Of a DNA stretch of 64,000 bases, positions 30,851 through 39,872 are shown piece by piece; the stretch's first letter is position 1, and each line of letters opens with the position of its first letter. The notes below the pieces were generated by a model. It was given only the letters and a program-made list of their open reading frames with translations. It searched no databases and was not told where the DNA came from. This DNA is from a phage, in the sequence record PZ445526.1. The stretch is one strand, 5' to 3'. Both the position numbers and the translations under genes were made by a program.

Positions 30851-31038
30851 TATTCCACCACATATGAAAGAGAGAATATTGCACACGCCATGTGAGTTGC
30901 AACTTCATCACACATATTATAACGTTTCTTGAGAAGTTCTACAAGTTCTTCACTAGTAACTTCATCCATGTCGACGAAAAAATCACCATTAATGATGACG
31001 TAGATATTTCCTTCTTGATTGAGTGCTTCAATTTTCAT
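30850..31038 (-). CDS. hypothetical protein
   Basis: ATG at 31036-31038 ([21 protein letters not shown]...); the track ORF starts at a non-ATG codon inside the promoter. Confidence 0.45.
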
Positions 31039-31066
31039 GATGTTCTCCTCTTTATCCGATAGTTGT

Positions 31067-31096
31067 ATAGTACCACAGCTCAAACGGAAAGTAAAC
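31067..31096 (-). promoter_or_regulatory. T4-type early promoter
   Basis: Sense GTTTACTTTCCGTTTGAGCTGTGGTACTAT, immediately downstream of the terminator at 31112-31129. Confidence 0.6.
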
Positions 31097-31111
31097 CGGT
31101 AAAATGAAAAA

Positions 31112-31129
31112 AGTCTCCCGAAGGAGACT
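31112..31129 (-). terminator. terminator hairpin (UUCG-type loop)
   Basis: Minus-sense AGUCUCCUUCGGGAGACU followed by UUUUUUCAUUUU. Confidence 0.6.
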
Positions 31130-31133
31130 AATG

Positions 31134-31520
31134 TTATTCGAGGGAAAGAAGATACTTACTCTGGTAAAACATTCCAGTAATATCATCTATCGTGCTTTGG
31201 ATGGCTGGAGGCATTTCTTTATAAATGCTGTTAGATTGGTCTAGTATGTGATCAATCATTTTAATTGTGTCGGTAGGAAGTTTACTGGCATCTGGAATTG
31301 AAGGCGTGTATTTTCTACCAGAATACCCCAAATATTGCTCACCAAATTTATCAATCAAATCTGGCAACTCGGAGAAAATAAAATCGTATGCTTTGTGTCT
31401 AGCATAACTTTTAGTTTCAAAATGCGCAGAATGAAAATAAGCTTGTGCAGCCATTAATAAACCTAAGTATTCATCTGCCTTTGAAGGTTTTCCACTTTGT
31501 GAAAAGTCGCTGAATTTCAT
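31134..31520 (-). CDS. hypothetical protein (rI.-1 position)
   Basis: 128-aa track ORF immediately downstream of rI. Confidence 0.5.
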
Positions 31521-31810
31521 TCAGTCTCCAATTTAATTTTCATAATTCTAGCGTATGATTGTGCCATCTCCGCGCCTCGCTCTATACATTCAAAATCAGA
31601 AGAGCACGGGTCATTTTTATAGGTCGTTCTCATAAAACTATAGAATTGTTCAGACGATTCTACGCTTTTATTTTCAAAAAGCATATAAACGTGCCTAATA
31701 CCAGATTCCATAAATTTATCAAAATGAGGATCGACATTCGCTTCAATCGATGGAGATAAAACAAATGACAATCCTAGCATGGCAAATAGTGCCGTTGCTT
31801 TTAAGGCCAT
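31517..31810 (-). CDS. rI: lysis-inhibition regulator RI (periplasmic antiholin)
   Basis: 97-aa ORF MALKATALFAMLGLSFVLSPSIEANVDPHFDKFMESGIRHVYMLF... with N-terminal signal-anchor; matches T4 RI. Confidence 0.85.
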   Translation of the reverse strand: MALKATALFAMLGLSFVLSPSIEANVDPHFDKFMESGIRHVYMLFENKSVESSEQFYSFMRTTYKNDPCSSDFECIERGAEMAQSYARIMKIKLETE

Positions 31811-31822
31811 AAAGGCCTCCTA

Positions 31823-32035
31823 TCATTTTTGTCCTGTATTTACTTTATGCCGATGCACGGCCTTAACTTTATCAAGGTATTTTTCAAAATTTCGCAATCT
31901 AGTATAGTCTGCCGGAGATTGGTTGAGTGATACTTCTCGACGCAAAGCTGAAATGATATTTCCAACTTCCCTACGAATTTCATCTAATTGAAGCACAGTA
32001 AGATTGCGAAGTTGCTTTTCAGTTAATTGTAGCAT
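31823..32035 (-). CDS. hypothetical protein (rI.1 position)
   Basis: 70-aa track ORF. Confidence 0.5.
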
Positions 32036-32077
32036 ATATACCCCTTTAGTTAGATAAACCTATTTATAACTTTTGCA

Positions 32078-32659
32078 CTAACCGAGCTTTTTAGTTAATT
32101 CATTCCAATGTTTTCTACACAAAGAAACATAAATTTCATCACCAATACAGATTTGATTACCTTCTTTAACTGGTGTTCCATCTTCCATTAATCGAGCTGT
32201 CATAATCGCTTTTTTGCCGCAATGACAAACTGCCTTTAGTTCAATAAGTTTATCTGCAATCGCTAAAAGTTCTTTAGAACCTTCAAATAATTTTCCAGCG
32301 AAATCAGTCCTTAATCCATAAGCCATAACAGGAACATTATATGTATCAACAATTCGACTTAATTGATGCACCTGTTCAGTTTTTAAAAATTGGGCTTCAT
32401 CTACAAATACGCAATGAATATCTTTTTGTGCTTCAGCCCATTTATAGAACTCGAAAATATCCATATCATCTGTGATAATATTCGCTTCCTGCTTAATTCC
32501 AATGCGAGAAACGACTTCACAGACAGAATCGCGAGTATCAATAGCAGGCTTAAGAACTAATACACTCATTCCGCGTTCTTTATAATTATGTGCAGCAGTC
32601 AAAAGAGAAGCAGATTTTCCAGCATTCATTGCTGCATAAGTAAAAATTAAACTCGCCAT
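32078..32659 (-). CDS. tk: thymidine kinase
   Basis: 193-aa ORF; P-loop AAMNAGKS, Zn-binding cysteines (CHCG...C..C); T4 Tk-like. Confidence 0.9.
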   Translation of the reverse strand: MASLIFTYAAMNAGKSASLLTAAHNYKERGMSVLVLKPAIDTRDSVCEVVSRIGIKQEANIITDDMDIFEFYKWAEAQKDIHCVFVDEAQFLKTEQVHQLSRIVDTYNVPVMAYGLRTDFAGKLFEGSKELLAIADKLIELKAVCHCGKKAIMTARLMEDGTPVKEGNQICIGDEIYVSLCRKHWNELTKKLG

Positions 32660-32660
32660 C

Positions 32661-32849
32661 TTAGTCCTTAGTTAAATTTTCTAAATATGTTTCTAAATCA
32701 TTTTCAGCTTTATCGATAGATTTTACTAATTCGTAATATGTTTCGGCATCTCCATAATCAGAAGATAATTCAAAAGACAAATCCTTTTCTAAACTAATAA
32801 TTTCACCAACTAAAAATAATATTTCGTTCTTTTGTTCGCGAGTAATCAT
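32661..32849 (-). CDS. hypothetical small acidic protein
   Basis: 62-aa track ORF. Confidence 0.45.
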   Translation of the reverse strand: MITREQKNEILFLVGEIISLEKDLSFELSSDYGDAETYYELVKSIDKAENDLETYLENLTKD

Positions 32850-33031
32850 AATGAATTTATATAATCAATGAGTTCTTGTTCTTTATTATCAAATTCTTTA
32901 GAAAGTTCTTCGTATTCATTTGCGCTAAAAGGACCGCATTCATTACAAACTTTTTCCAATTCACTATTTTTATCCATAACTTCGTGGATAAGAGAAAAGA
33001 GTTTGTCTTTTTGTTCTTTGCTTAGGCTCAT
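32846..33031 (-). CDS. hypothetical small protein
   Basis: 61-aa track ORF. Confidence 0.45.
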   Translation of the reverse strand: MSLSKEQKDKLFSLIHEVMDKNSELEKVCNECGPFSANEYEELSKEFDNKEQELIDYINSL

Positions 33032-33197
33032 ATATTAATTTCCAGAAGTTTTAAAATAATTCGTTTTTGCTTAAATATTTCCATAGTTAAATGATCAGTA
33101 TCTTTTTGACCAATTCCAATGGCAAAACCTTTATTAGCAGCGAGTTCAATTAAATTATCAAGTTCGCGTAACACTTCGTACTGTAACTCAGAACTAT

Positions 33198-33410
33198 TCA
33201 TTTCGGTTTACCTTCTTTAACGAAATCTGGATAAGGATAAAATCCCGAATAAAATCCTTCACCTTTATGATTGATGCATCCTTTATTAGAACAATAGCAC
33301 CAATAATCAAAATCACAAGCCATTTCATCGTTGCATAAAGCAAAAACAACCGGCCATTTACACTTTTCACAATGAGCATTTTTAAGAATACTAGTTTGGC
33401 TCATAACCAT
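33198..33410 (-). CDS. hypothetical Cys-rich small protein
   Basis: 70-aa ORF with multiple cysteines (CEKCKWP...CNDEMACDFDYWCYCSNKGCINH); possible Zn-binding. Confidence 0.45.
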   Translation of the reverse strand: MVMSQTSILKNAHCEKCKWPVVFALCNDEMACDFDYWCYCSNKGCINHKGEGFYSGFYPYPDFVKEGKPK

Positions 33411-33628
33411 GTCACCTTTAAGCAGTATTCTTCTACATGCTGTTTACGACCTTTCTTATCAATAAAGGTATATTCAACGAATGTTCCAATGTAGTCTTTA
33501 TCGACATCATGTGGACTATTAATTGGACATTTAGTACGGCAAATGCGTTCCCATTGACGAATAATTACTGCCTTATTCTTTGGGTCATATGGATGTGGAT
33601 AATGTATATTCATAATAATGGTTCCCAA
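33401..33628 (-). CDS. hypothetical small protein
   Basis: 75-aa track ORF. Confidence 0.45.
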   Translation of the reverse strand: MGTIIMNIHYPHPYDPKNKAVIIRQWERICRTKCPINSPHDVDKDYIGTFVEYTFIDKKGRKQHVEEYCLKVTWL

Positions 33629-34077
33629 TCAACAATCACAATTTCTAATTTAGAGGAATATGTATCTAAAATCCCCTCAATAATATCCCAGTTCCCTTTA
33701 CCTATGCCTGCACCAATCCTAGGCATATAGATTGTAGGTTTAGTCAGTTTATTTTCACCAAACTCATTTAATTCTAACATACAATTCATTAAAGCGGAAT
33801 ACTCAAAATTTGGCCCTGGTTGAAATTGAGTATAAAGGTTGAAGCAATACGCTTTATGAGTCCTAAAGTATTTTTCATAGACTGAATAAGAACCAAGTTT
33901 AGTTACATCACCCCATTCAGTCTGTAATTTATCAGCTTCCAAAATTTTAGGGAAAGCTTTGGTTAATTGACCTGCGACTCCAGCTTTCATCGCGTGAAAA
34001 CAATTACATCCATGCGCAATATTTTTACCTTCAGCGAAAAGGGCGACAATATCGCCCTTGATATATTTTACAATCAT
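33610..34077 (-). CDS. macro-domain-like protein (candidate ADP-ribose binding/hydrolase)
   Basis: 155 aa; motif pattern resembling macro domains: YIKGDIV..., ...NIAHGCNCFHAMKAGVAGQL..., ...MPRIGAGIGKGNW...; assignment from motifs only. Confidence 0.5.
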   Translation of the reverse strand: MIVKYIKGDIVALFAEGKNIAHGCNCFHAMKAGVAGQLTKAFPKILEADKLQTEWGDVTKLGSYSVYEKYFRTHKAYCFNLYTQFQPGPNFEYSALMNCMLELNEFGENKLTKPTIYMPRIGAGIGKGNWDIIEGILDTYSSKLEIVIVDWEPLL

Positions 34078-34421
34078 CTAGTACTCAATCCTCGATTATA
34101 AGAATCTACCAAACGGTCAACCATTGAATGACAAGCGGCTTTATCTTTCTCCTCCGCAACTGAACATTCTAAAGTATTCCACTTTTTAGCATATCGTTTT
34201 AACAATGTATAGTTTTTGTATCTGCTTGATTTATCCCTTTCTCCGTCTTTATATGCATATATTAATTTCTGTGCAAATTCAGCTTGGCATGCTTTATTTT
34301 TCCCACAATAATCTGCCGCAGTGCGGTTTACATATTCTCTAATTTCAGTATATGATGTATCTGCTGACGCAGAAGCAGAAAATGAAATTAATCCTATACA
34401 TAAAACCAAAATTTTAGTCAT
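34074..34421 (-). CDS. secreted protein, hypothetical
   Basis: 115-aa ORF with N-terminal signal peptide (MTKILVLCIGLISFSASASA) and four cysteines. Confidence 0.5.
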   Translation of the reverse strand: MTKILVLCIGLISFSASASADTSYTEIREYVNRTAADYCGKNKACQAEFAQKLIYAYKDGERDKSSRYKNYTLLKRYAKKWNTLECSVAEEKDKAACHSMVDRLVDSYNRGLSTR

Positions 34422-34959
34422 TTACTATTTCCAAAAGTTTATTATTTTTAAGGTAATTAGCCTTTTCTAGGACTTCAGAAGCATATTTAGAACCTGCTTT
34501 AACATTCCATCCCGAATTATAAGAGGATATTGCTTTTCTTATATCGCCCTTATGTATATTTAACCAATAAGAAAGTTCAATGTACGCCCAGGAAGCTGAA
34601 TTGGATCGTTTATTCAACATTCTTTTTATTTCAGCATCGGTCATATTATAACCAAGTTCCTTAACTCTTGCTCTCATAGTAGGCAAATAATTTTGGAACA
34701 TTCCGTAGGCGTGATGCTTTGGTTTAGATTTTAAATTAACTCCGCCAGAGCTTTCTTGCCATAAAATGGCTGCCATTATATGACCTAATCCGCTCTTGTG
34801 GATGTTTTTGTGTGTTTTATATTTTCCATCCTTAGAAAATTGTTCCCCGAATTGATACGCGTAACGCATGTTATCGAGTTGGACATTACTGAAAGTATGC
34901 TCGGAGCTATGTGCCATCATTGAAATGGCCAATAGACCAGCGAGTAGTGCTTTTCTCAT
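34414..34959 (-). CDS. secreted lytic-transglycosylase-like protein (SLT-like)
   Basis: 181 aa; signal peptide; motifs ILWQESSGG, YGMFQ and SYNSGWN resemble the SLT catalytic-domain E-S, GLMQ and YNxG motifs. Confidence 0.5.
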   Translation of the reverse strand: MRKALLAGLLAISMMAHSSEHTFSNVQLDNMRYAYQFGEQFSKDGKYKTHKNIHKSGLGHIMAAILWQESSGGVNLKSKPKHHAYGMFQNYLPTMRARVKELGYNMTDAEIKRMLNKRSNSASWAYIELSYWLNIHKGDIRKAISSYNSGWNVKAGSKYASEVLEKANYLKNNKLLEIVND

Positions 34960-34966
34960 GCTTACC

Positions 34967-35428
34967 TCATTGAGTTTTAATTACTGCTTTAGAAGCCTTT
35001 CCTGGTAAACGACGACTGTTAATAATTGCCATCCTACATTGAAGTGACGGGTCTTTGAACTTTGCATTAGGTTTACAAACTGTAAATCCAAGCCAAAGAT
35101 TTCCATCTGTGATTTCTAAACGTCCAGGACGATATTCAACCCCATCAATAAAATCCTCGTCAATGTCAGGACGCGGTGGCATACTCAAGAATTCATTAAC
35201 TTCTAAAACATGGTCTTTTATTTTATGGAATAATTCAAAAACATATGTCTCATCAATCTCTCGTTGAATTGCGCGATCAAGAAGATGTTGAGAATATTTT
35301 AGATGAAACGATGAGACTCCTGCTGCTTTTGATGCCTCACGAATCTCATTGTTAATTTGACGAAACTCCGACTCAAAGTGACGACGAAGCTTATTTCGAC
35401 GGATAAAAACTTCTGTATTGATAGTCAT
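34967..35428 (-). CDS. regB: RegB endoribonuclease
   Basis: 153-aa ORF MTINTEVFIRRNKLRRHFESEFRQINNEIREASKAAG...; matches T4 RegB as I recall it. Confidence 0.9.
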   Translation of the reverse strand: MTINTEVFIRRNKLRRHFESEFRQINNEIREASKAAGVSSFHLKYSQHLLDRAIQREIDETYVFELFHKIKDHVLEVNEFLSMPPRPDIDEDFIDGVEYRPGRLEITDGNLWLGFTVCKPNAKFKDPSLQCRMAIINSRRLPGKASKAVIKTQ

Positions 35429-35455
35429 GTTATTCTCCTCTTAACTGATAGAAAA

Positions 35456-35485
35456 ATTATACCACAGTCAAGAGGAAAAGTAAAC
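35456..35485 (-). promoter_or_regulatory. T4-type early promoter upstream of regB
   Basis: Sense GTTTAC, 18 bp, TATAAT, about 28 bp before the regB ATG. Confidence 0.6.
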
Positions 35486-35487
35486 AG

Positions 35488-35808
35488 TTATTCTTTAAAT
35501 CTAATCAATTTATTCATAGACTTTGAAACTTCTGCACGAACCTCATGTAGATTTTTGAGTTGTTCAAGACGCTGCGCATAGTAAGCAATTTCATCTTCTT
35601 CGAGACAGTCCTGCGAATCTTCTTTAAGATAACGTGCATAGTCCTGGAAAGCGTTACGGACTACTTCCTGGAAGTCATCAAGACTTTGAATTTTCTTAGG
35701 AGCAACAGACACACGACGAGGGGCAGTATAATACTCATAACCAAACCCTGCGCTTAATTGAGCCATTAGTATTTTTCCTCTGGTTGGAACACTGCGCGAC
35801 AAGCCCAC
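35488..35808 (-). CDS. hypothetical protein
   Basis: 106-aa track ORF. Confidence 0.5.
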
Positions 35809-36068
35809 ATACTGGCTTCTTTGAGTTTCGTTTTAGCAATAGTTAACTGATCGAGGCTTTCGGCATAATTCTTCGCGAATTCACAATCTTCACAATTATC
35901 TAGTGCTTCCCAGAATTCGTCATATAAAGCATCAAAGATAAGTCCTAAACGAACTTCAGCGTCTTTGATAGCATTCACTTTACCGATTTTCTCTTCAGTA
36001 TGTGGCTTATAACCCTTAATATCTTCAATCATATTTGACTTCCTCACCAGTGCATAAATCGTATTCAA
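35766..36068 (-). CDS. hypothetical protein
   Basis: 100-aa track ORF overlapping its neighbours at both ends. Confidence 0.5.
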
Positions 36069-36246
36069 CTAAACGAATAGGTTCATGAATGCCATATCCC
36101 TGAACAGAAATTTCTGTCGTAGGATAAATTCCATCAATATCACCCATATTCAACGCTTCATTAAATTGCTGTTCGCCTGAATTACTAAACCACTCGGCGA
36201 AAGCATTTAGCACATCTTCAGAACCTTCAATAATTATCTTTGCCAT
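36025..36246 (-). CDS. hypothetical protein
   Basis: 73-aa track ORF. Confidence 0.45.
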   Translation of the reverse strand: MAKIIIEGSEDVLNAFAEWFSNSGEQQFNEALNMGDIDGIYPTTEISVQGYGIHEPIRLVEYDLCTGEEVKYD

Positions 36247-36608
36247 TACAAACTTTCAGTAAAGGTACGAGCGATAACGTCGCGCTGCTGTTCCGGAGTC
36301 AGAGAGTTAAAGCGAACTGCATAACCGGATACACGGATGGTCAGCTGCGGATATTTTTCCGGATGCTTAACTGCATCTTCCAGAGTTTCGCGACGCAGAA
36401 CGTTAACGTTCAGGTGTTGACCACCTTCAATTTTAACTGTAGGTTGTGGCTCAATTTCAATTTCACGGGCATGCAAACCGTAGAAAATTTCTGGGTCTAC
36501 AAAAGAGTCCTCTTTAAAGGTTTTAGAGACAATAATTCGTGCTTGAATACCATCTTCAAAATAAATAGTACCTTTATGTGTGCCTTCAAGAATTTGATAT
36601 GCTTTCAT
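36246..36608 (-). CDS. autonomous glycyl radical cofactor (GrcA/YfiD-like)
   Basis: 120 aa; C-terminal half ([63 protein letters not shown]) matches E. coli YfiD/GrcA including the glycyl-radical motif RVSGYAV; the DNA in this half is visibly GC-richer than flanking phage DNA. Confidence 0.8.
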
Positions 36609-36615
36609 ATAAACC

Positions 36616-36945
36616 TCAATTAGAAAATAAATTTATCCAAGATTGTTCTTTAATTAAAAATGGCTCAGAATCATATGCCATTAAACTTTGCGTAATTAAT
36701 CCTTTAAAAGGTCCATCAATAAATTCCATGGTAAAATATGGAATTTTATTCATTAGCCGTGCATTAGGAGCAGTGCACAAAACTCTGCATCCTTTGAATA
36801 CGCCTTTTTGTAATTTGTATTGCTTGGGATAAAATTCGCTTAAAATGTTATTTTTTGCCAAAATTTCAAAATGATTCACCAATTTATTTTTAATAGTTTT
36901 TGGCGAAAAATAAAGATATTCGAAAAGCTGAGTGTCTGTCATCAT
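36616..36945 (-). CDS. hypothetical protein
   Basis: Track ORF 36616..36996; probable ATG at 36945 ([13 protein letters not shown]...). Confidence 0.45.
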
Positions 36946-37481
36946 TGCATTCCGATTACGAAAAACTGTGGACGAGTAATACCACCAATACAACATTTAA
37001 TATTACAGCAGCAGTGTACAGTGTCAATATGGACACTATAAATCTTATCCATATCAGGAGATTTGACAGGCTCATCAATTATATACAAAATTCGCGAAAG
37101 CGATAAACCTCTGAACTTGCTTCCTTTATTACCAATAAAACTGCGTACAGAATCAGTAAATAAACGAAAACGTATATCATCATTAGAATAACGCGAAAAT
37201 TCCTTTTTGATGTTATTTGCAGAAATTTTAGCGTAAGCTGAAGTATTAGAAAGAACAATAACTGTTCCGCCATCATACAACCAATTAGCAGCGAAGTTAG
37301 TCACAGCAATTGATTTACCAGATTGACGTCCACCATCTAGTCGAAGTGTACAATACTGTTTAAGTAAGTCTTCAAATGGCGGGATATATTCGTTTTTACA
37401 AATTTCTTCTACTCTAGCATCAGAATGGTGTGTAAAAGCATTCATCAGGGATAGATAAGGACCAGTTAAAAATGTTCTCAT
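36942..37481 (-). CDS. P-loop protein, hypothetical
   Basis: Track ORF 36942..37529; probable ATG at 37481 (MRTFLTGPY...); Walker A-like GGRQSGKS and Walker B-like ILYIIDEP. Confidence 0.45.
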   Translation of the reverse strand: MRTFLTGPYLSLMNAFTHHSDARVEEICKNEYIPPFEDLLKQYCTLRLDGGRQSGKSIAVTNFAANWLYDGGTVIVLSNTSAYAKISANNIKKEFSRYSNDDIRFRLFTDSVRSFIGNKGSKFRGLSLSRILYIIDEPVKSPDMDKIYSVHIDTVHCCCNIKCCIGGITRPQFFVIGMQ

Positions 37482-37622
37482 TTTGTTCTCTCTAGGTTTG
37501 GGCCATTCCATGGCGCATGAATTGTCCATTTCTCTATTTACCCATTACCGCACTTGGGCTCGACCTTATTACAGGTTGGCGGGAATCCCTCACAGAATCA
37601 TGAGGTCCAGGTTGTTCCCATG

Positions 37623-38884: not shown

Positions 38885-39853
<969 letters not shown>

Positions 39854-39872
<19 letters not shown>

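What the first reader, a model, noticed from the sequence alone, without database searches (positions are those of the whole stretch)
33610..34077. Macro-domain-like protein in the tk-regB interval
ORF 33610..34077 shows a motif pattern typical of macro domains (YIKGDIV, NIAHGCNCFHAMKAGVAGQL, MPRIGAGIGKGNW). T4-like phages use ADP-ribosylation, and several host defences use ADP-ribosylation or NAD-derived signals, so a phage macro domain could remove ADP-ribose marks or degrade such signals. The call is from motifs only.
Basis: inference. Interest (0 to 1): 0.5.

Follow-up and report, generated by a model that had tools for sequence, protein, structure and literature searches.

The report
T-even phage tk.4 macrodomain (AdfM)

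Summary
The ORF is real: 33610..34077 on the MINUS strand, 155 aa, carrying all three quoted motifs. It lies between tk and regB in a Tequatrovirus (T4-like) genome. It is gene tk.4 and is 151/155 identical to T4 Tk.4.

What I add:
- Tk.4 is not a DarG orthologue. An invariant Gln84 sits where DarG and TARG1 have their catalytic Lys, as in SCO6735, which does cleave thymidine-linked ADP-ribose.
- Its closest tested relative (35% identity) is the phage ADPR-1''-phosphate phosphatase Adpp, so the biochemical substrate is still unproven.
- tk.4 is swapped as a gene-precise cassette between otherwise near-identical T-even genomes.

Interest is low.

The parts
33610..34077 (-). tk.4 (adfM) coding sequence, 155 aa, a stand-alone macrodomain
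34051..34065 (-). YIKGD (residues 5-9), the first beta-strand motif of TARG1-like macrodomains
   Evidence: Translation. G8 is present in 86/89 and D9 in 67/89 homologues. It aligns with YVKGD of TARG1 and YIKGD of BT1257.
33967..34020 (-). IAHGCNCFHAMKAGVAGQ (residues 20-37): the H-x-C-N-C motif with the conserved Asn25, followed by phosphate-binding loop 1. K31/A32 here replace G31/S32 of T4.
   Evidence: Translation. Column counts: H22 86/89, N25 88/89, G33 and A35 89/89. N25 aligns with SCO6735 N27, and H22 with Poa1p H23. The K31 variant is shared with T6 and the P0001 cluster.
33814..33840 (-). NLYTQFQPG (residues 80-88): invariant Gln84 at the position of the catalytic Lys of TARG1 (K84) and DarG (K80), and of Gln85 of SCO6735
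   Evidence: Q84 is present in 89/89 homologues. Profile alignment and hmmalign. SCO6735 Q85A is inactive (PMC9411070).
33688..33723 (-). PRIGAGIGKGNW (residues 119-130): Gly-rich loop 2 of the ADP-ribose pocket. G126 sits where TARG1 has its catalytic D125.
   Evidence: P119 and G122 are invariant; G124, G128 and W130 are at least 95% conserved. Alignment to TARG1 GCGLDRLQW.
34074..34077 (-). ATGA overlap: stop codon of vs and start codon of tk.4
   Evidence: The + strand reads TCAT.
33610..33613 (-). ATGA overlap: stop codon of tk.4 and start codon of tk.3
   Evidence: The + strand reads TCAT. The tk.3 start follows the RB14 and T4 annotation.
34074..34421 (-). vs (valyl-tRNA synthetase modifier), the upstream neighbour in the same co-directional gene run. 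Context only.
33401..33613 (-). tk.3, the downstream neighbour. Context only.
39420..39857 (-). nudE (T4 Nudix ADP-ribose pyrophosphatase), a possible sink for the ADP-ribose that Tk.4 would release. The link is inferred, not shown.
   Evidence: 98.6% identical to T2 NudE by tblastn. The ADPR activity of T4 NudE is cited in PMC9503650.

Best explanation
The ORF is tk.4 (recently renamed adfM) of a T4-like phage. It encodes a 155-residue stand-alone macrodomain of the ALC1/TARG1-like class.

Expression: it is translated from a long minus-strand run of small genes, coupled by ATGA overlaps to vs upstream and tk.3 downstream.

Pocket: the protein binds the ADP-ribose moiety in a cleft formed by Asn25, loop 1 (M30-G36), Gln84 and loop 2 (P119-W130).

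Most likely mechanism: it hydrolyses the bond between C1'' of ADP-ribose and N3 of thymine in single-stranded phage DNA that the host toxin DarT2 has modified. This releases free ADP-ribose and restores a replicable template, so the phage escapes the DarTG2 defence. Catalysis would follow the Gln-dependent, lysine-independent route described for SCO6735, not the Lys-dependent route of DarG and TARG1.

Shown here: the gene, the fold, the pocket residues, and orthology to T4 Tk.4.
Shown by others: T4 lacking tk.4 becomes DarTG2-sensitive, and the Tk.4 protein is detected in T2-infected cells.
Inferred: that Tk.4 itself removes ADP-ribose from DNA, the role of Gln84, and early expression. The last rests on my general knowledge that this T4 region is early/middle; no tool result here supports it.
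For: Identity and orthology:
- 97% identical to T4 Tk.4 at the same position between vs and tk.3.
- T2's Tk.4 has the same sequence as T4's in the alignment, and T2 is DarTG2-resistant like T4.

Genetics:
- In a T4 transposon library, tk.4 was the single significant hit on a DarTG2 host, and a clean knockout was sensitised.
- T4 lacking adfA and adfN stays DarTG2-resistant, which had predicted a further factor.

Fold:
- AF2 pLDDT 95.8.
- Foldseek probability 1.00 to TARG1, Poa1p, BT1257 and DarG.

Active site:
- Q84 is invariant in 89/89 homologues and N25 is present in 88/89.
- Q84 aligns with SCO6735 Q85, TARG1 K84 and DarG K80.
- SCO6735 cleaves DarT-made thymidine-ADPr, rescues cells from DarT, and loses all activity as Q85A and nearly all as N27S.

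Precedent and expression:
- The PhiKZ macrodomain AdfM removes DarT2 marks from DNA in vitro.
- Tk.4 protein was detected in the T2 infection proteome.
Against: - No biochemical assay of Tk.4 has been published. The preprint itself says enzymatic removal only 'seems likely'.
- Tk.4 is a weak DarG relative: 26.6 bits on the PADLOC DarG model against 132.9 for PhiKZ AdfM, and 23.7 bits against an NCBIfam cut-off of 250.
- It lacks the catalytic Lys of DarG.
- It lacks the extended Lys-bearing loop that SCO6735 uses to hold DNA.
- Its closest functionally tested homologue is an ADPR-1''-phosphate phosphatase.
- The window allele differs from the tested T4 allele inside the phosphate-binding loop (G31K, S32A) and at T29A.
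- The genetic evidence comes from a preprint, under special conditions (M9 glucose, 30 C).
Confidence: 0.62

Rival explanations
1. Tk.4 is primarily an ADP-ribose-1''-phosphate phosphatase, Poa1p/Adpp-like. It would convert ADPR-1''-P, made by RES-domain NADase defences (aRES) or by RNA 2'-phosphotransferase reactions, into ADP-ribose. The DarTG2 phenotype would then be a side activity or an indirect effect.
For: - Vibrio phage AG74 gp177 is 95.5% identical to Gary Adpp, the purified ADPR-1''-P phosphatase that counters aRES.
- AG74 gp177 is 34.8% identical to the window protein, E=1.4e-18. That is closer than any solved structure.
- Tk.4 shares the H-x-C-N-C motif with Poa1p, including the His that was mutated in PDB 6LFS.
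- RefSeq and PHROG 335 call the family 'phosphatase'.
- Homologues lie between Adps-like and Namat-like genes in Acinetobacter and Vibrio phages.
Against: - The 64-kb window holds no Adps or Namat homologue. Adpp works only as part of the three-gene NARP1-AP operon, so ADPR made by Tk.4 would not be rebuilt into NAD+.
- T4-syntenic tk.4 genes form their own clade, apart from the NARP1-adjacent genes (rough NJ tree).
- The only phenotype on record for T4 tk.4 is DarTG2 sensitivity.
- The two activities are not mutually exclusive, because both break a bond at C1'' of the distal ribose.
Confidence: 0.15
2. Tk.4 protects without catalysis. It would bind and inhibit DarT2 directly, or bind ADP-ribosylated DNA, acting as a decoy or stoichiometric inhibitor.
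For: - Catalytically dead SCO6735 (Q85A) still inhibits DarT in vitro, more strongly than DarG or TARG1 mutants do.
- tk.4 is replaced as a gene-precise cassette between near-identical T-even genomes: 48-73% DNA identity inside the gene against 92-100% in the flanks. That pattern is expected for a protein-protein arms race.
Against: - The pocket residues are invariant across 89 homologues from very different phages and hosts (Q84, G33, A35, P119, G122; N25 in 88/89). This argues for conserved chemistry rather than toxin-specific binding.
- DarG binds DarT mainly through a second, C-terminal domain. Tk.4 lacks it, matching only positions 2-146 of the 329- to 338-position DarG models.
- An enzyme suits a small protein that must repair many sites better than a stoichiometric binder does.
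Confidence: 0.1
3. Tk.4 erases or tunes the phage's own ADP-ribosylation of host proteins by Alt, ModA and ModB, or ModB-mediated RNAylation.
For: T-even phages encode three ADP-ribosyltransferases. Macrodomains are the commonest ADP-ribose erasers in phages, found in 41% of myoviruses.
Against: - Alt and the Mod enzymes modify arginine. From my general knowledge, not tested here, TARG1-class macrodomains act on acidic-residue esters and on thymidine, not on Arg N-glycosides.
- Homologues occur in Felixounavirus, Saclayvirus, Thalassavirus and Pseudomonas phages. I did not check these for Alt/Mod homologues.
- No growth phenotype on a plain K-12 host is reported.
Confidence: 0.05
4. Tk.4 degrades or sequesters a soluble NAD-derived immune signal or by-product, such as cyclic ADPR isomers of Thoeris or O-acetyl-ADP-ribose from sirtuin defences.
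For: Comparative-genomic proposals say that phage Macro domains may prefer small ADPr derivatives. Source databases label some homologues O-acetyl-ADP-ribose deacetylase.
Against: No experimental support for this family. The source labels are automated. The T4 screen gave a specific DarTG2 phenotype.
Confidence: 0.05

Closest known systems
T4 Tk.4 / AdfM (anti-DarT factor Macrodomain; NP_049723; bioRxiv 10.1101/2025.11.20.689424)
   Same: Orthologue: 151/155 identical, same length, same position between vs and tk.3, and the same ATGA-coupled arrangement.
   Different: There are four substitutions: A29 for T, K31 for G, A32 for S and T112 for I. Three of them lie in or next to the phosphate-binding loop. 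The K31/A32 form is that of phage T6 and of a 122-member cluster. Only the T4 allele has been tested.
Adpp, the NARP1-associated ADPR-1''-phosphate phosphatase of Vibrio phage Gary (bioRxiv 10.64898/2026.01.28.702374)
   Same: Same phage macrodomain family (PHROG 335). It is about 35% identical over almost the full length, and shares the H-x-C-N-C motif and the Gln at the catalytic position.
   Different: Adpp sits between Adps and Namat and works as part of NAD+ reconstitution. Tk.4 has no such partners in the window. Its known phenotype concerns DNA ADP-ribosylation.
SCO6735 (Streptomyces coelicolor) and BT1257 (Bacteroides thetaiotaomicron), Gln-type ALC1-like macrodomains
   Different: Only about 25-29% identical. 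Tk.4 has Gly23 where SCO6735 has Val25. It also lacks the 5-6-residue longer mobile loop carrying Lys89 that helps SCO6735 hold DNA. Its motif is HGCNC rather than HVCND.
DarG antitoxin macrodomain (T. aquaticus 5M31/5M3E, M. tuberculosis 5M3I) and PhiKZ gp104 'AdfM' (Cell Rep 2026, PMC13309987)
   Different: - Tk.4 has Gln84 where DarG and PhiKZ AdfM have the catalytic Lys (FPTK).
- It has no DarT-binding domain and no toxin neighbour.
- DarG HMM scores are 26.6 bits against 132.9 for PhiKZ AdfM.
- Pairwise Tk.4 against PhiKZ AdfM is barely alignable: E=0.019 over 23 residues.
- The shared name AdfM therefore covers two different macrodomain subfamilies.
Human TARG1/OARD1 and yeast Poa1p
   Same: Top Foldseek matches. 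The YxKGD start is shared. Tk.4 shares H-x-C-N-C with Poa1p. TARG1 also cleaves thymidine-ADPr.
   Different: The TARG1 K84/D125 dyad is replaced by Q84/G126. Poa1p has Ser at the Q84 position. Identity is only about 21-23%.

Membership tests
Macro domain superfamily (Pfam PF01661) | Profile match at or above the curated gathering score | tested here: met
   24.0 bits against a cut-off of 22, E=3.9e-5, covering profile positions 2-113 of 118.
Macro domain superfamily (Pfam PF01661) | Three-layer alpha/beta/alpha macro fold | tested here: met
Macro domain superfamily (Pfam PF01661) | ADP-ribose pocket: the conserved Asn after strand 2, plus two Gly-rich phosphate-binding loops | tested here: met
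   N25 is present in 88/89. G33 and A35 are invariant. P119, G122, G124 and G128 are invariant or nearly so. All align with the corresponding loops of TARG1, DarG and SCO6735. This was tested by alignment only; the model's pocket geometry was not inspected.
ALC1/TARG1-like macrodomain class | Closest structural and profile similarity is to TARG1, DarG, SCO6735/BT1257 and Poa1p rather than to MacroD-like or viral macrodomains | tested here: met
DarG antitoxin (NCBIfam NF048014 equivalog; PADLOC DarG) | Score at or above the curated equivalog cut-off | tested here: not met
   23.7 bits against a cut-off of 250. PADLOC DarG gives 26.6 bits, against 132.9 for PhiKZ AdfM.
DarG antitoxin (NCBIfam NF048014 equivalog; PADLOC DarG) | Catalytic lysine (K80 of T. 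aquaticus DarG) | tested here: not met
   Gln84 occupies that column and is invariant in 89/89 homologues.
DarG antitoxin (NCBIfam NF048014 equivalog; PADLOC DarG) | C-terminal DarT-binding domain and an adjacent darT gene | tested here: not met
   The protein is 155 aa and matches only positions 2-146 of the 329- to 338-position models. Its neighbours are vs and tk.3.
TARG1/OARD1 | Lys84/Asp125 catalytic dyad | tested here: not met
   Q84 and G126 occupy those columns.
SCO6735-type (Gln) subclass of ALC1-like macrodomains | Gln at the catalytic position, held by the conserved Asn (SCO6735 Q85 and N27) | tested here: met
   Q84 and N25 align with Q85 and N27. The functional importance in SCO6735 comes from PMC9411070.
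SCO6735-type (Gln) subclass of ALC1-like macrodomains | Val/Ile25, and the extended mobile loop with Lys89 that clamps DNA | tested here: not met
   Gly23 (88/89) replaces Val25. The loop after Q84 is 5-6 residues shorter and has no Lys.
SCO6735-type (Gln) subclass of ALC1-like macrodomains | Hydrolysis of thymidine-linked ADP-ribose on ssDNA | not testable with these tools
   This needs an enzyme assay. Only genetic evidence exists for T4 Tk.4.
Adpp (NARP1-AP ADPR-1''-phosphate phosphatase) / Poa1p-like | Homology to the validated enzyme | tested here: met
   34.8% identity, E=1.4e-18, to AG74 gp177. AG74 gp177 is 95.5% identical to Gary Adpp. The H-x-C-N-C motif is shared with Poa1p.
Adpp (NARP1-AP ADPR-1''-phosphate phosphatase) / Poa1p-like | Encoded within a NARP1 operon, next to Adps and Namat | tested here: not met
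   tblastn with Adps-like and Namat-like proteins of two phages finds nothing in the 64-kb window. The neighbours are vs and tk.3.
Adpp (NARP1-AP ADPR-1''-phosphate phosphatase) / Poa1p-like | ADPR-1''-P phosphatase activity | not testable with these tools
   This needs an enzyme assay.
T4 Tk.4 / AdfM orthologous group | High identity to T4 Tk.4 at the syntenic position | tested here: met
   151/155 identical. The vs - tk.4 - tk.3 order is as in T4, T2, T6 and RB14.
T4 Tk.4 / AdfM orthologous group | Required for plating on a DarTG2 host | not testable with these tools
   Shown for T4 only. The window allele carries G31K, S32A and T29A.

The most novel reading that the evidence does not exclude
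Tk.4 is not a captured DarG. It belongs to a separate, very widespread phage macrodomain family (Gln-type, Poa1p/Adpp-like) whose single active site cleaves any leaving group at C1'' of ADP-ribose.

On this reading the same 155-residue enzyme would both strip DarT2 marks from thymidine in DNA and dephosphorylate ADPR-1''-P made by RES-type NADases. It would use a lysine-independent mechanism. The gene-precise allele swapping seen among T-even phages would reflect an ongoing arms race, for example additional direct contacts with DarT2 variants.
Probability: 0.25. Interest if true: 0.5.

Novelty: already known. Interest (0 to 1): 0.2.

Why it matters
It matters little as a discovery. The T4 RefSeq record already notes an 'A1pp phosphatase motif' for tk.4. 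A 2025 preprint assigns the gene an anti-DarTG2 role under the name adfM.

The residual value is in three clarifications:
- T4 AdfM and PhiKZ AdfM share a name and a target defence, but they are different macrodomain subfamilies with different residues at the catalytic position (Gln against Lys).
- The nearest biochemically tested relative of Tk.4 is a phosphatase for a soluble NAD breakdown product. The substrate range of this family, present in about 5% of sequenced phage records, is therefore an open and easily testable question.
- The natural allele series offers ready-made material for testing specificity: the T4/T2 MGSG type, the T6/window MKAG type, an 80-90% type, and a 56% PP01-type cassette.

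Tried and rejected
- Promoter and terminator scan of 31000..37500. It found 24 promoter-like sites against 25.5 expected from shuffles. It is uninformative for timing or for a dedicated tk.4 promoter.
- Net charge and pI as a proxy for DNA binding. Tk.4-clade proteins are acidic (median pI 5.5), but so is the proven DNA de-ADP-ribosylase PhiKZ AdfM (pI 5.05). The measure does not discriminate.
- NJ tree of 83 family members labelled by gene context. T4-syntenic genes form one clade. NARP1-adjacent genes are scattered among the rest, so no sequence signature separating 'Adpp' from 'AdfM' emerged. The tree is rough: BLOSUM62 distances and no support values.
- Motif-level discrimination between Adpp and Tk.4. 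Both carry H-x-C-N-C and (T/G)Q, so the motifs do not separate them.
- A DarG-orthologue reading was rejected. The DarG models score far below cut-off, the catalytic Lys is absent, and there is no second domain.
- The LeRoux 2022 DarTG paper (PMC9250638) is not held in the library. The Poa1p structure paper was not found either, so the Poa1p residue roles rest only on PDB entry titles.
- I could not read the coordinates of the AF2 model, so pocket geometry was judged from alignments only.
- Three literature calls failed because a search term was too short, and one script failed on a file name. All were repeated successfully where needed.
Full report
OBSERVATION. The ORF list shows an open reading frame at exactly 33610..34077, on the minus strand, with an ATG start, encoding 155 aa. 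The finding did not state the strand. Its translation contains the three quoted strings: YIKGD at residues 5-9, NIAHGCNCFHAMKAGVAGQL at 19-38 and MPRIGAGIGKGNW at 118-130. Thymidine kinase lies at 32078..32659 (-) and regB at 34967..35428 (-). The intervening genes are tk.1, tk.2, two small ORFs, tk.3, tk.4, vs and vs.1, all on the minus strand. The start codon of the ORF overlaps the stop codon of vs, and its stop codon overlaps the start of tk.3. Both junctions read ATGA on the coding strand. This is the usual arrangement of translationally coupled phage genes.

WHAT GENOME. A 2.5-kb stretch around the ORF is 98% identical to Shigella phage SH7, phages RB14, RB18 and T6, and hundreds of other Tequatrovirus records. 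In RB14, T6 and T4 the gene at this position is tk.4. The window protein is 151/155 identical to T4 Tk.4 and 99% identical to the T6 and SH7 proteins.

IS IT A MACRODOMAIN? Yes, by four independent lines of evidence.
- Sequence profile. Pfam Macro (PF01661) scores 24.0 bits against a gathering score of 22. PHROG 335, labelled 'phosphatase', matches at E=1.3e-64.
- Solved structures, single sequence. The protein finds BT1257 (1e-8), Poa1p (3e-5), TARG1 (2e-3) and the DarG macrodomains.
- Solved structures, profile of 89 homologues. This raises the matches to BT1257 3e-21, SCO6735 8e-18, TARG1 2e-17, Poa1p 1e-15 and M. tuberculosis DarG 1e-14.
The protein therefore belongs to the ALC1/TARG1-like class. 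No solved structure of Tk.4 itself was found.

POCKET RESIDUES. Across 89 homologues the invariant positions are G33, A35, Q84, P119 and G122. Positions conserved in at least 90% include G8, H22, G23, C24, N25, C26, M30, N80, Y82, T83, G88, I121, G124, G128 and W130. These make up three elements:
- the strand-2 Asn motif (HGCNC);
- phosphate-binding loop 1 (M-x-x-G-I/V-A);
- the NLYTQ motif together with loop 2 (P-x-IGAG-x-x-G-x-W).
The pocket is there.

WHAT IS ALREADY KNOWN.
- Annotation. The T4 RefSeq record annotates tk.4 as 'phosphatase; contains A1pp phosphatase motif'. A1pp is the old name for the macro domain. Other records call the gene 'macro domain containing protein', 'high-affinity ADP-ribose binding module protein' or 'Poa1p-like family protein'.
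- A predicted missing factor. A Nature Communications paper showed that T2 and T4 remain DarTG2-resistant without adfA and adfN. It predicted a further anti-DarTG factor (PMC11825919).
- The factor found. A bioRxiv preprint of November 2025 (HIDEN-SEQ, 10.1101/2025.11.20.689424) found that factor. On a DarTG2 host, tk.4 was the only significantly depleted gene in a T4 transposon library. A clean knockout was sensitised. The gene was renamed adfM, 'anti-DarT factor Macrodomain'. The authors state that enzymatic removal of ADP-ribose from DNA 'seems likely', and no assay is reported.
- Expression. Tk.4 protein was detected in T2-infected cells (10.64898/2026.06.19.733364).

WHAT KIND OF MACRODOMAIN, AND HOW IT LIKELY WORKS. 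I aligned TARG1, two DarG macrodomains, PhiKZ gp104, SCO6735 and BT1257 to the family profile.
- The invariant Gln84 falls in the column of the catalytic Lys of TARG1 (K84) and DarG (K80), and of the FPTK lysine of PhiKZ gp104.
- SCO6735 and BT1257 also have Gln in that column.
- TARG1's second catalytic residue, D125, is opposite G126.

For SCO6735 the literature shows the following (PMC9411070):
- The enzyme efficiently removes DarT-made ADP-ribose from thymidine in ssDNA and protects cells from DarT.
- Q85A abolishes activity, and N27S nearly abolishes it.
- The proposed mechanism uses an ordered water rather than a lysine.

Tk.4 keeps both of those residues (Q84 and N25). It differs in having Gly23 for Val25, and it lacks the longer Lys-bearing mobile loop of SCO6735.

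My best explanation is therefore that Tk.4 binds ADP-ribosyl-thymidine in phage ssDNA and hydrolyses the C1''-N3 bond by a Gln-dependent route, undoing DarT2. The free ADP-ribose could then be degraded by the phage NudE, encoded at 39420..39857. That last link is inference only.

IT IS NOT A DarG ORTHOLOGUE, AND THE NAME AdfM IS AMBIGUOUS. A Cell Reports paper (PMC13309987) gave the same name, AdfM, to PhiKZ gp104. That protein was shown in vitro to remove DarT2 marks from DNA.
- PhiKZ gp104 is a true DarG-like protein: E=9e-25 to M. tuberculosis DarG, 132.9 bits on the PADLOC DarG model, and a catalytic Lys.
- The window protein scores 26.6 bits on that model. It scores 23.7 bits against the 250-bit cut-off of the NCBIfam DarG equivalog.
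- Pairwise, the window protein aligns with PhiKZ gp104 over only 23 residues, E=0.019.
- It has no second domain and no toxin neighbour.

A SERIOUS RIVAL FOR THE BIOCHEMICAL ACTIVITY. tblastn finds homologues in 2,733 of 50,697 phage records. These include Straboviridae, Felixounavirus, Saclayvirus, Thalassavirus and Pseudomonas, Vibrio and Aeromonas phages.
- In Acinetobacter phage Aci05 and Vibrio phage AG74 the homologue lies next to a ribose-phosphate-pyrophosphokinase-like gene and a nicotinamide-phosphoribosyltransferase-like gene. That is the Adps/Namat pair of the NAD+ reconstitution pathway NARP1.
- A January 2026 preprint (10.64898/2026.01.28.702374) showed that this NARP1-associated macrodomain, Adpp of Vibrio phage Gary, is an ADPR-1''-phosphate phosphatase. 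It lets NARP1 overcome the RES-domain NADase defence aRES.
- AG74 gp177 is 95.5% identical to Gary Adpp and 34.8% identical to the window protein, E=1.4e-18. It carries the same HxCNC and (T/G)Q motifs.
- It even scores higher on the DarG model (44.2 bits) than Tk.4 does.

Sequence alone therefore cannot tell whether Tk.4 acts on thymidine-ADPr, on ADPR-1''-P, or on both. Two observations argue against a primary phosphatase role. The window has no Adps or Namat homologue, and the only phenotype on record is DarTG2 sensitivity. Both reactions break a bond at C1'' of the distal ribose, so dual activity is plausible. I rate it as the most novel reading not excluded.

OTHER RIVALS.
- Non-catalytic inhibition of DarT2 is possible, because dead SCO6735 still inhibits DarT. 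The invariance of the pocket across very different phages argues for chemistry instead.
- Erasing the phage's own Alt/ModA/ModB marks is unlikely. Those marks are arginine-linked.
- Degradation of cyclic ADPR signals or O-acetyl-ADPR has no support beyond general proposals.

FAMILY STRUCTURE AND ALLELES. I examined 79 further loci from viral contigs. All genes lying in the tk-regB synteny form one clade in a rough NJ tree. NARP1-adjacent genes are scattered among the remainder.

Within Tequatrovirus the protein falls into discrete identity bands: 95-99%, 80-90% and about 56%. One contig, L039, is 92-100% identical to the window in vs, vs.1, regB and tk.3 onward, but only 48-73% identical inside tk.4 (window 34055..33590). 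This is a gene-precise cassette replacement.

Within the T4-type allele the phosphate-binding loop is polymorphic. T4, T2 and RB14 have MGSG. The window, T6, SH7 and a 122-member cluster have MKAG. Lys occurs at this position in 8 of 89 cluster representatives. In SCO6735, BT1257 and DarG a Lys occupies the neighbouring position, in a G-K-G motif. I regard the variant as natural and probably functional, but only the T4 allele has been tested.

VERDICT. The gene, its macro-domain nature and its counter-defence role are already known, so interest is low. Three questions remain open: the actual substrate or substrates, the Gln-based mechanism, and the meaning of the allele swapping. All are testable with simple assays.

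Noticed in passing
window 33590..34055 (tk.4) compared with L039 6001..6465: tk.4 is replaced as a gene-precise cassette. Contig L039 is 92-100% identical in DNA to the window in vs, vs.1, regB and from tk.3 onward, but only 48-73% identical inside tk.4 (protein 56%). Tequatrovirus Tk.4 proteins fall into discrete bands of 95-99%, 80-90% and about 56% identity.
   Followed up: partly
window 33982..33990 (codons 30-32 of tk.4): The phosphate-binding loop is polymorphic among near-identical alleles. The window, T6, SH7 and a 122-member cluster have M-K-A-G where T4, T2 and RB14 have M-G-S-G. The window also has A29 where T4, T2, T6, RB14 and the other close cluster representatives aligned have T29. 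The functional effect is unknown.
   Followed up: partly
L003 904..4474; L004 3132..6162: Tk.4 homologues in Acinetobacter phage Aci05 and Vibrio phage AG74 sit beside PRPP-synthetase-like (Adps) and Nampt-like (Namat) genes. This is the NARP1-AP operon type described for Vibrio phage Gary. RNA ligase genes flank both loci.
   Followed up: yes
window 34074..34421 (vs) and 34414..34959 (vs.1), minus strand: Both proteins begin with N-termini that look like Sec signal peptides (MTKILVLCIGLISFSASASA..., MRKALLAGLLAISMMAHS...). This is odd for Vs, which is annotated as a modifier of the cytoplasmic valyl-tRNA synthetase. The HIDEN-SEQ preprint reports vs as the gene most depleted in minimal medium.
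   Followed up: no
window 33028..33201 and 33198..33410, minus strand: Two small ORFs lie between tk.2 and tk.3. They are absent from T4 but present in RB14, RB32, T6 and T2 (RB32ORF110c and 111c). The second is Cys-rich (CEKCKW...CNDEMACDFDYWCYCSNKGC), which suggests a small zinc-binding protein.
   Followed up: no
window 34039..34059: A perfect 8-bp GC-rich inverted repeat (AAGGGCGA-TATTG-TCGCCCTT) lies inside tk.4 at codons 7-13, that is +19 to +39 of the mRNA. On the + (antisense) strand it is followed by a T-rich run and scores as terminator-like. A T2 RIL-seq study reports host sRNA ArcZ pairing with the tk.4 transcript. I did not test for a link.
   Followed up: no
window 32868..32985 (tk.2): There is a second local drop in identity to L039 (about 62%), within otherwise roughly 95%-identical flanks. 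This is another small mosaic segment.
   Followed up: no
window 39420..39857, minus strand: nudE (T4 Nudix ADP-ribose pyrophosphatase) lies 5.3 kb upstream on the same strand, next to lysozyme e at 38888..39379. It could dispose of ADP-ribose released by Tk.4.
   Followed up: no
literature (no window coordinates): Two non-orthologous phage macrodomains carry the same name, AdfM. T4 Tk.4 is Gln-type (bioRxiv, Nov 2025) and PhiKZ gp104 is Lys-type and DarG-like (Cell Rep, Apr 2026). In addition, a 2026 T2 preprint labels tk.4 'putative thymidine kinase', which is a mis-annotation.
   Followed up: yes
L005 3995..4780 (Felixounavirus TP1 gp093): In Felix-O1-like phages the homologous macrodomain is the N-terminal part of a 261-aa protein. 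It carries an uncharacterised C-terminal extension of about 100 residues.
   Followed up: no
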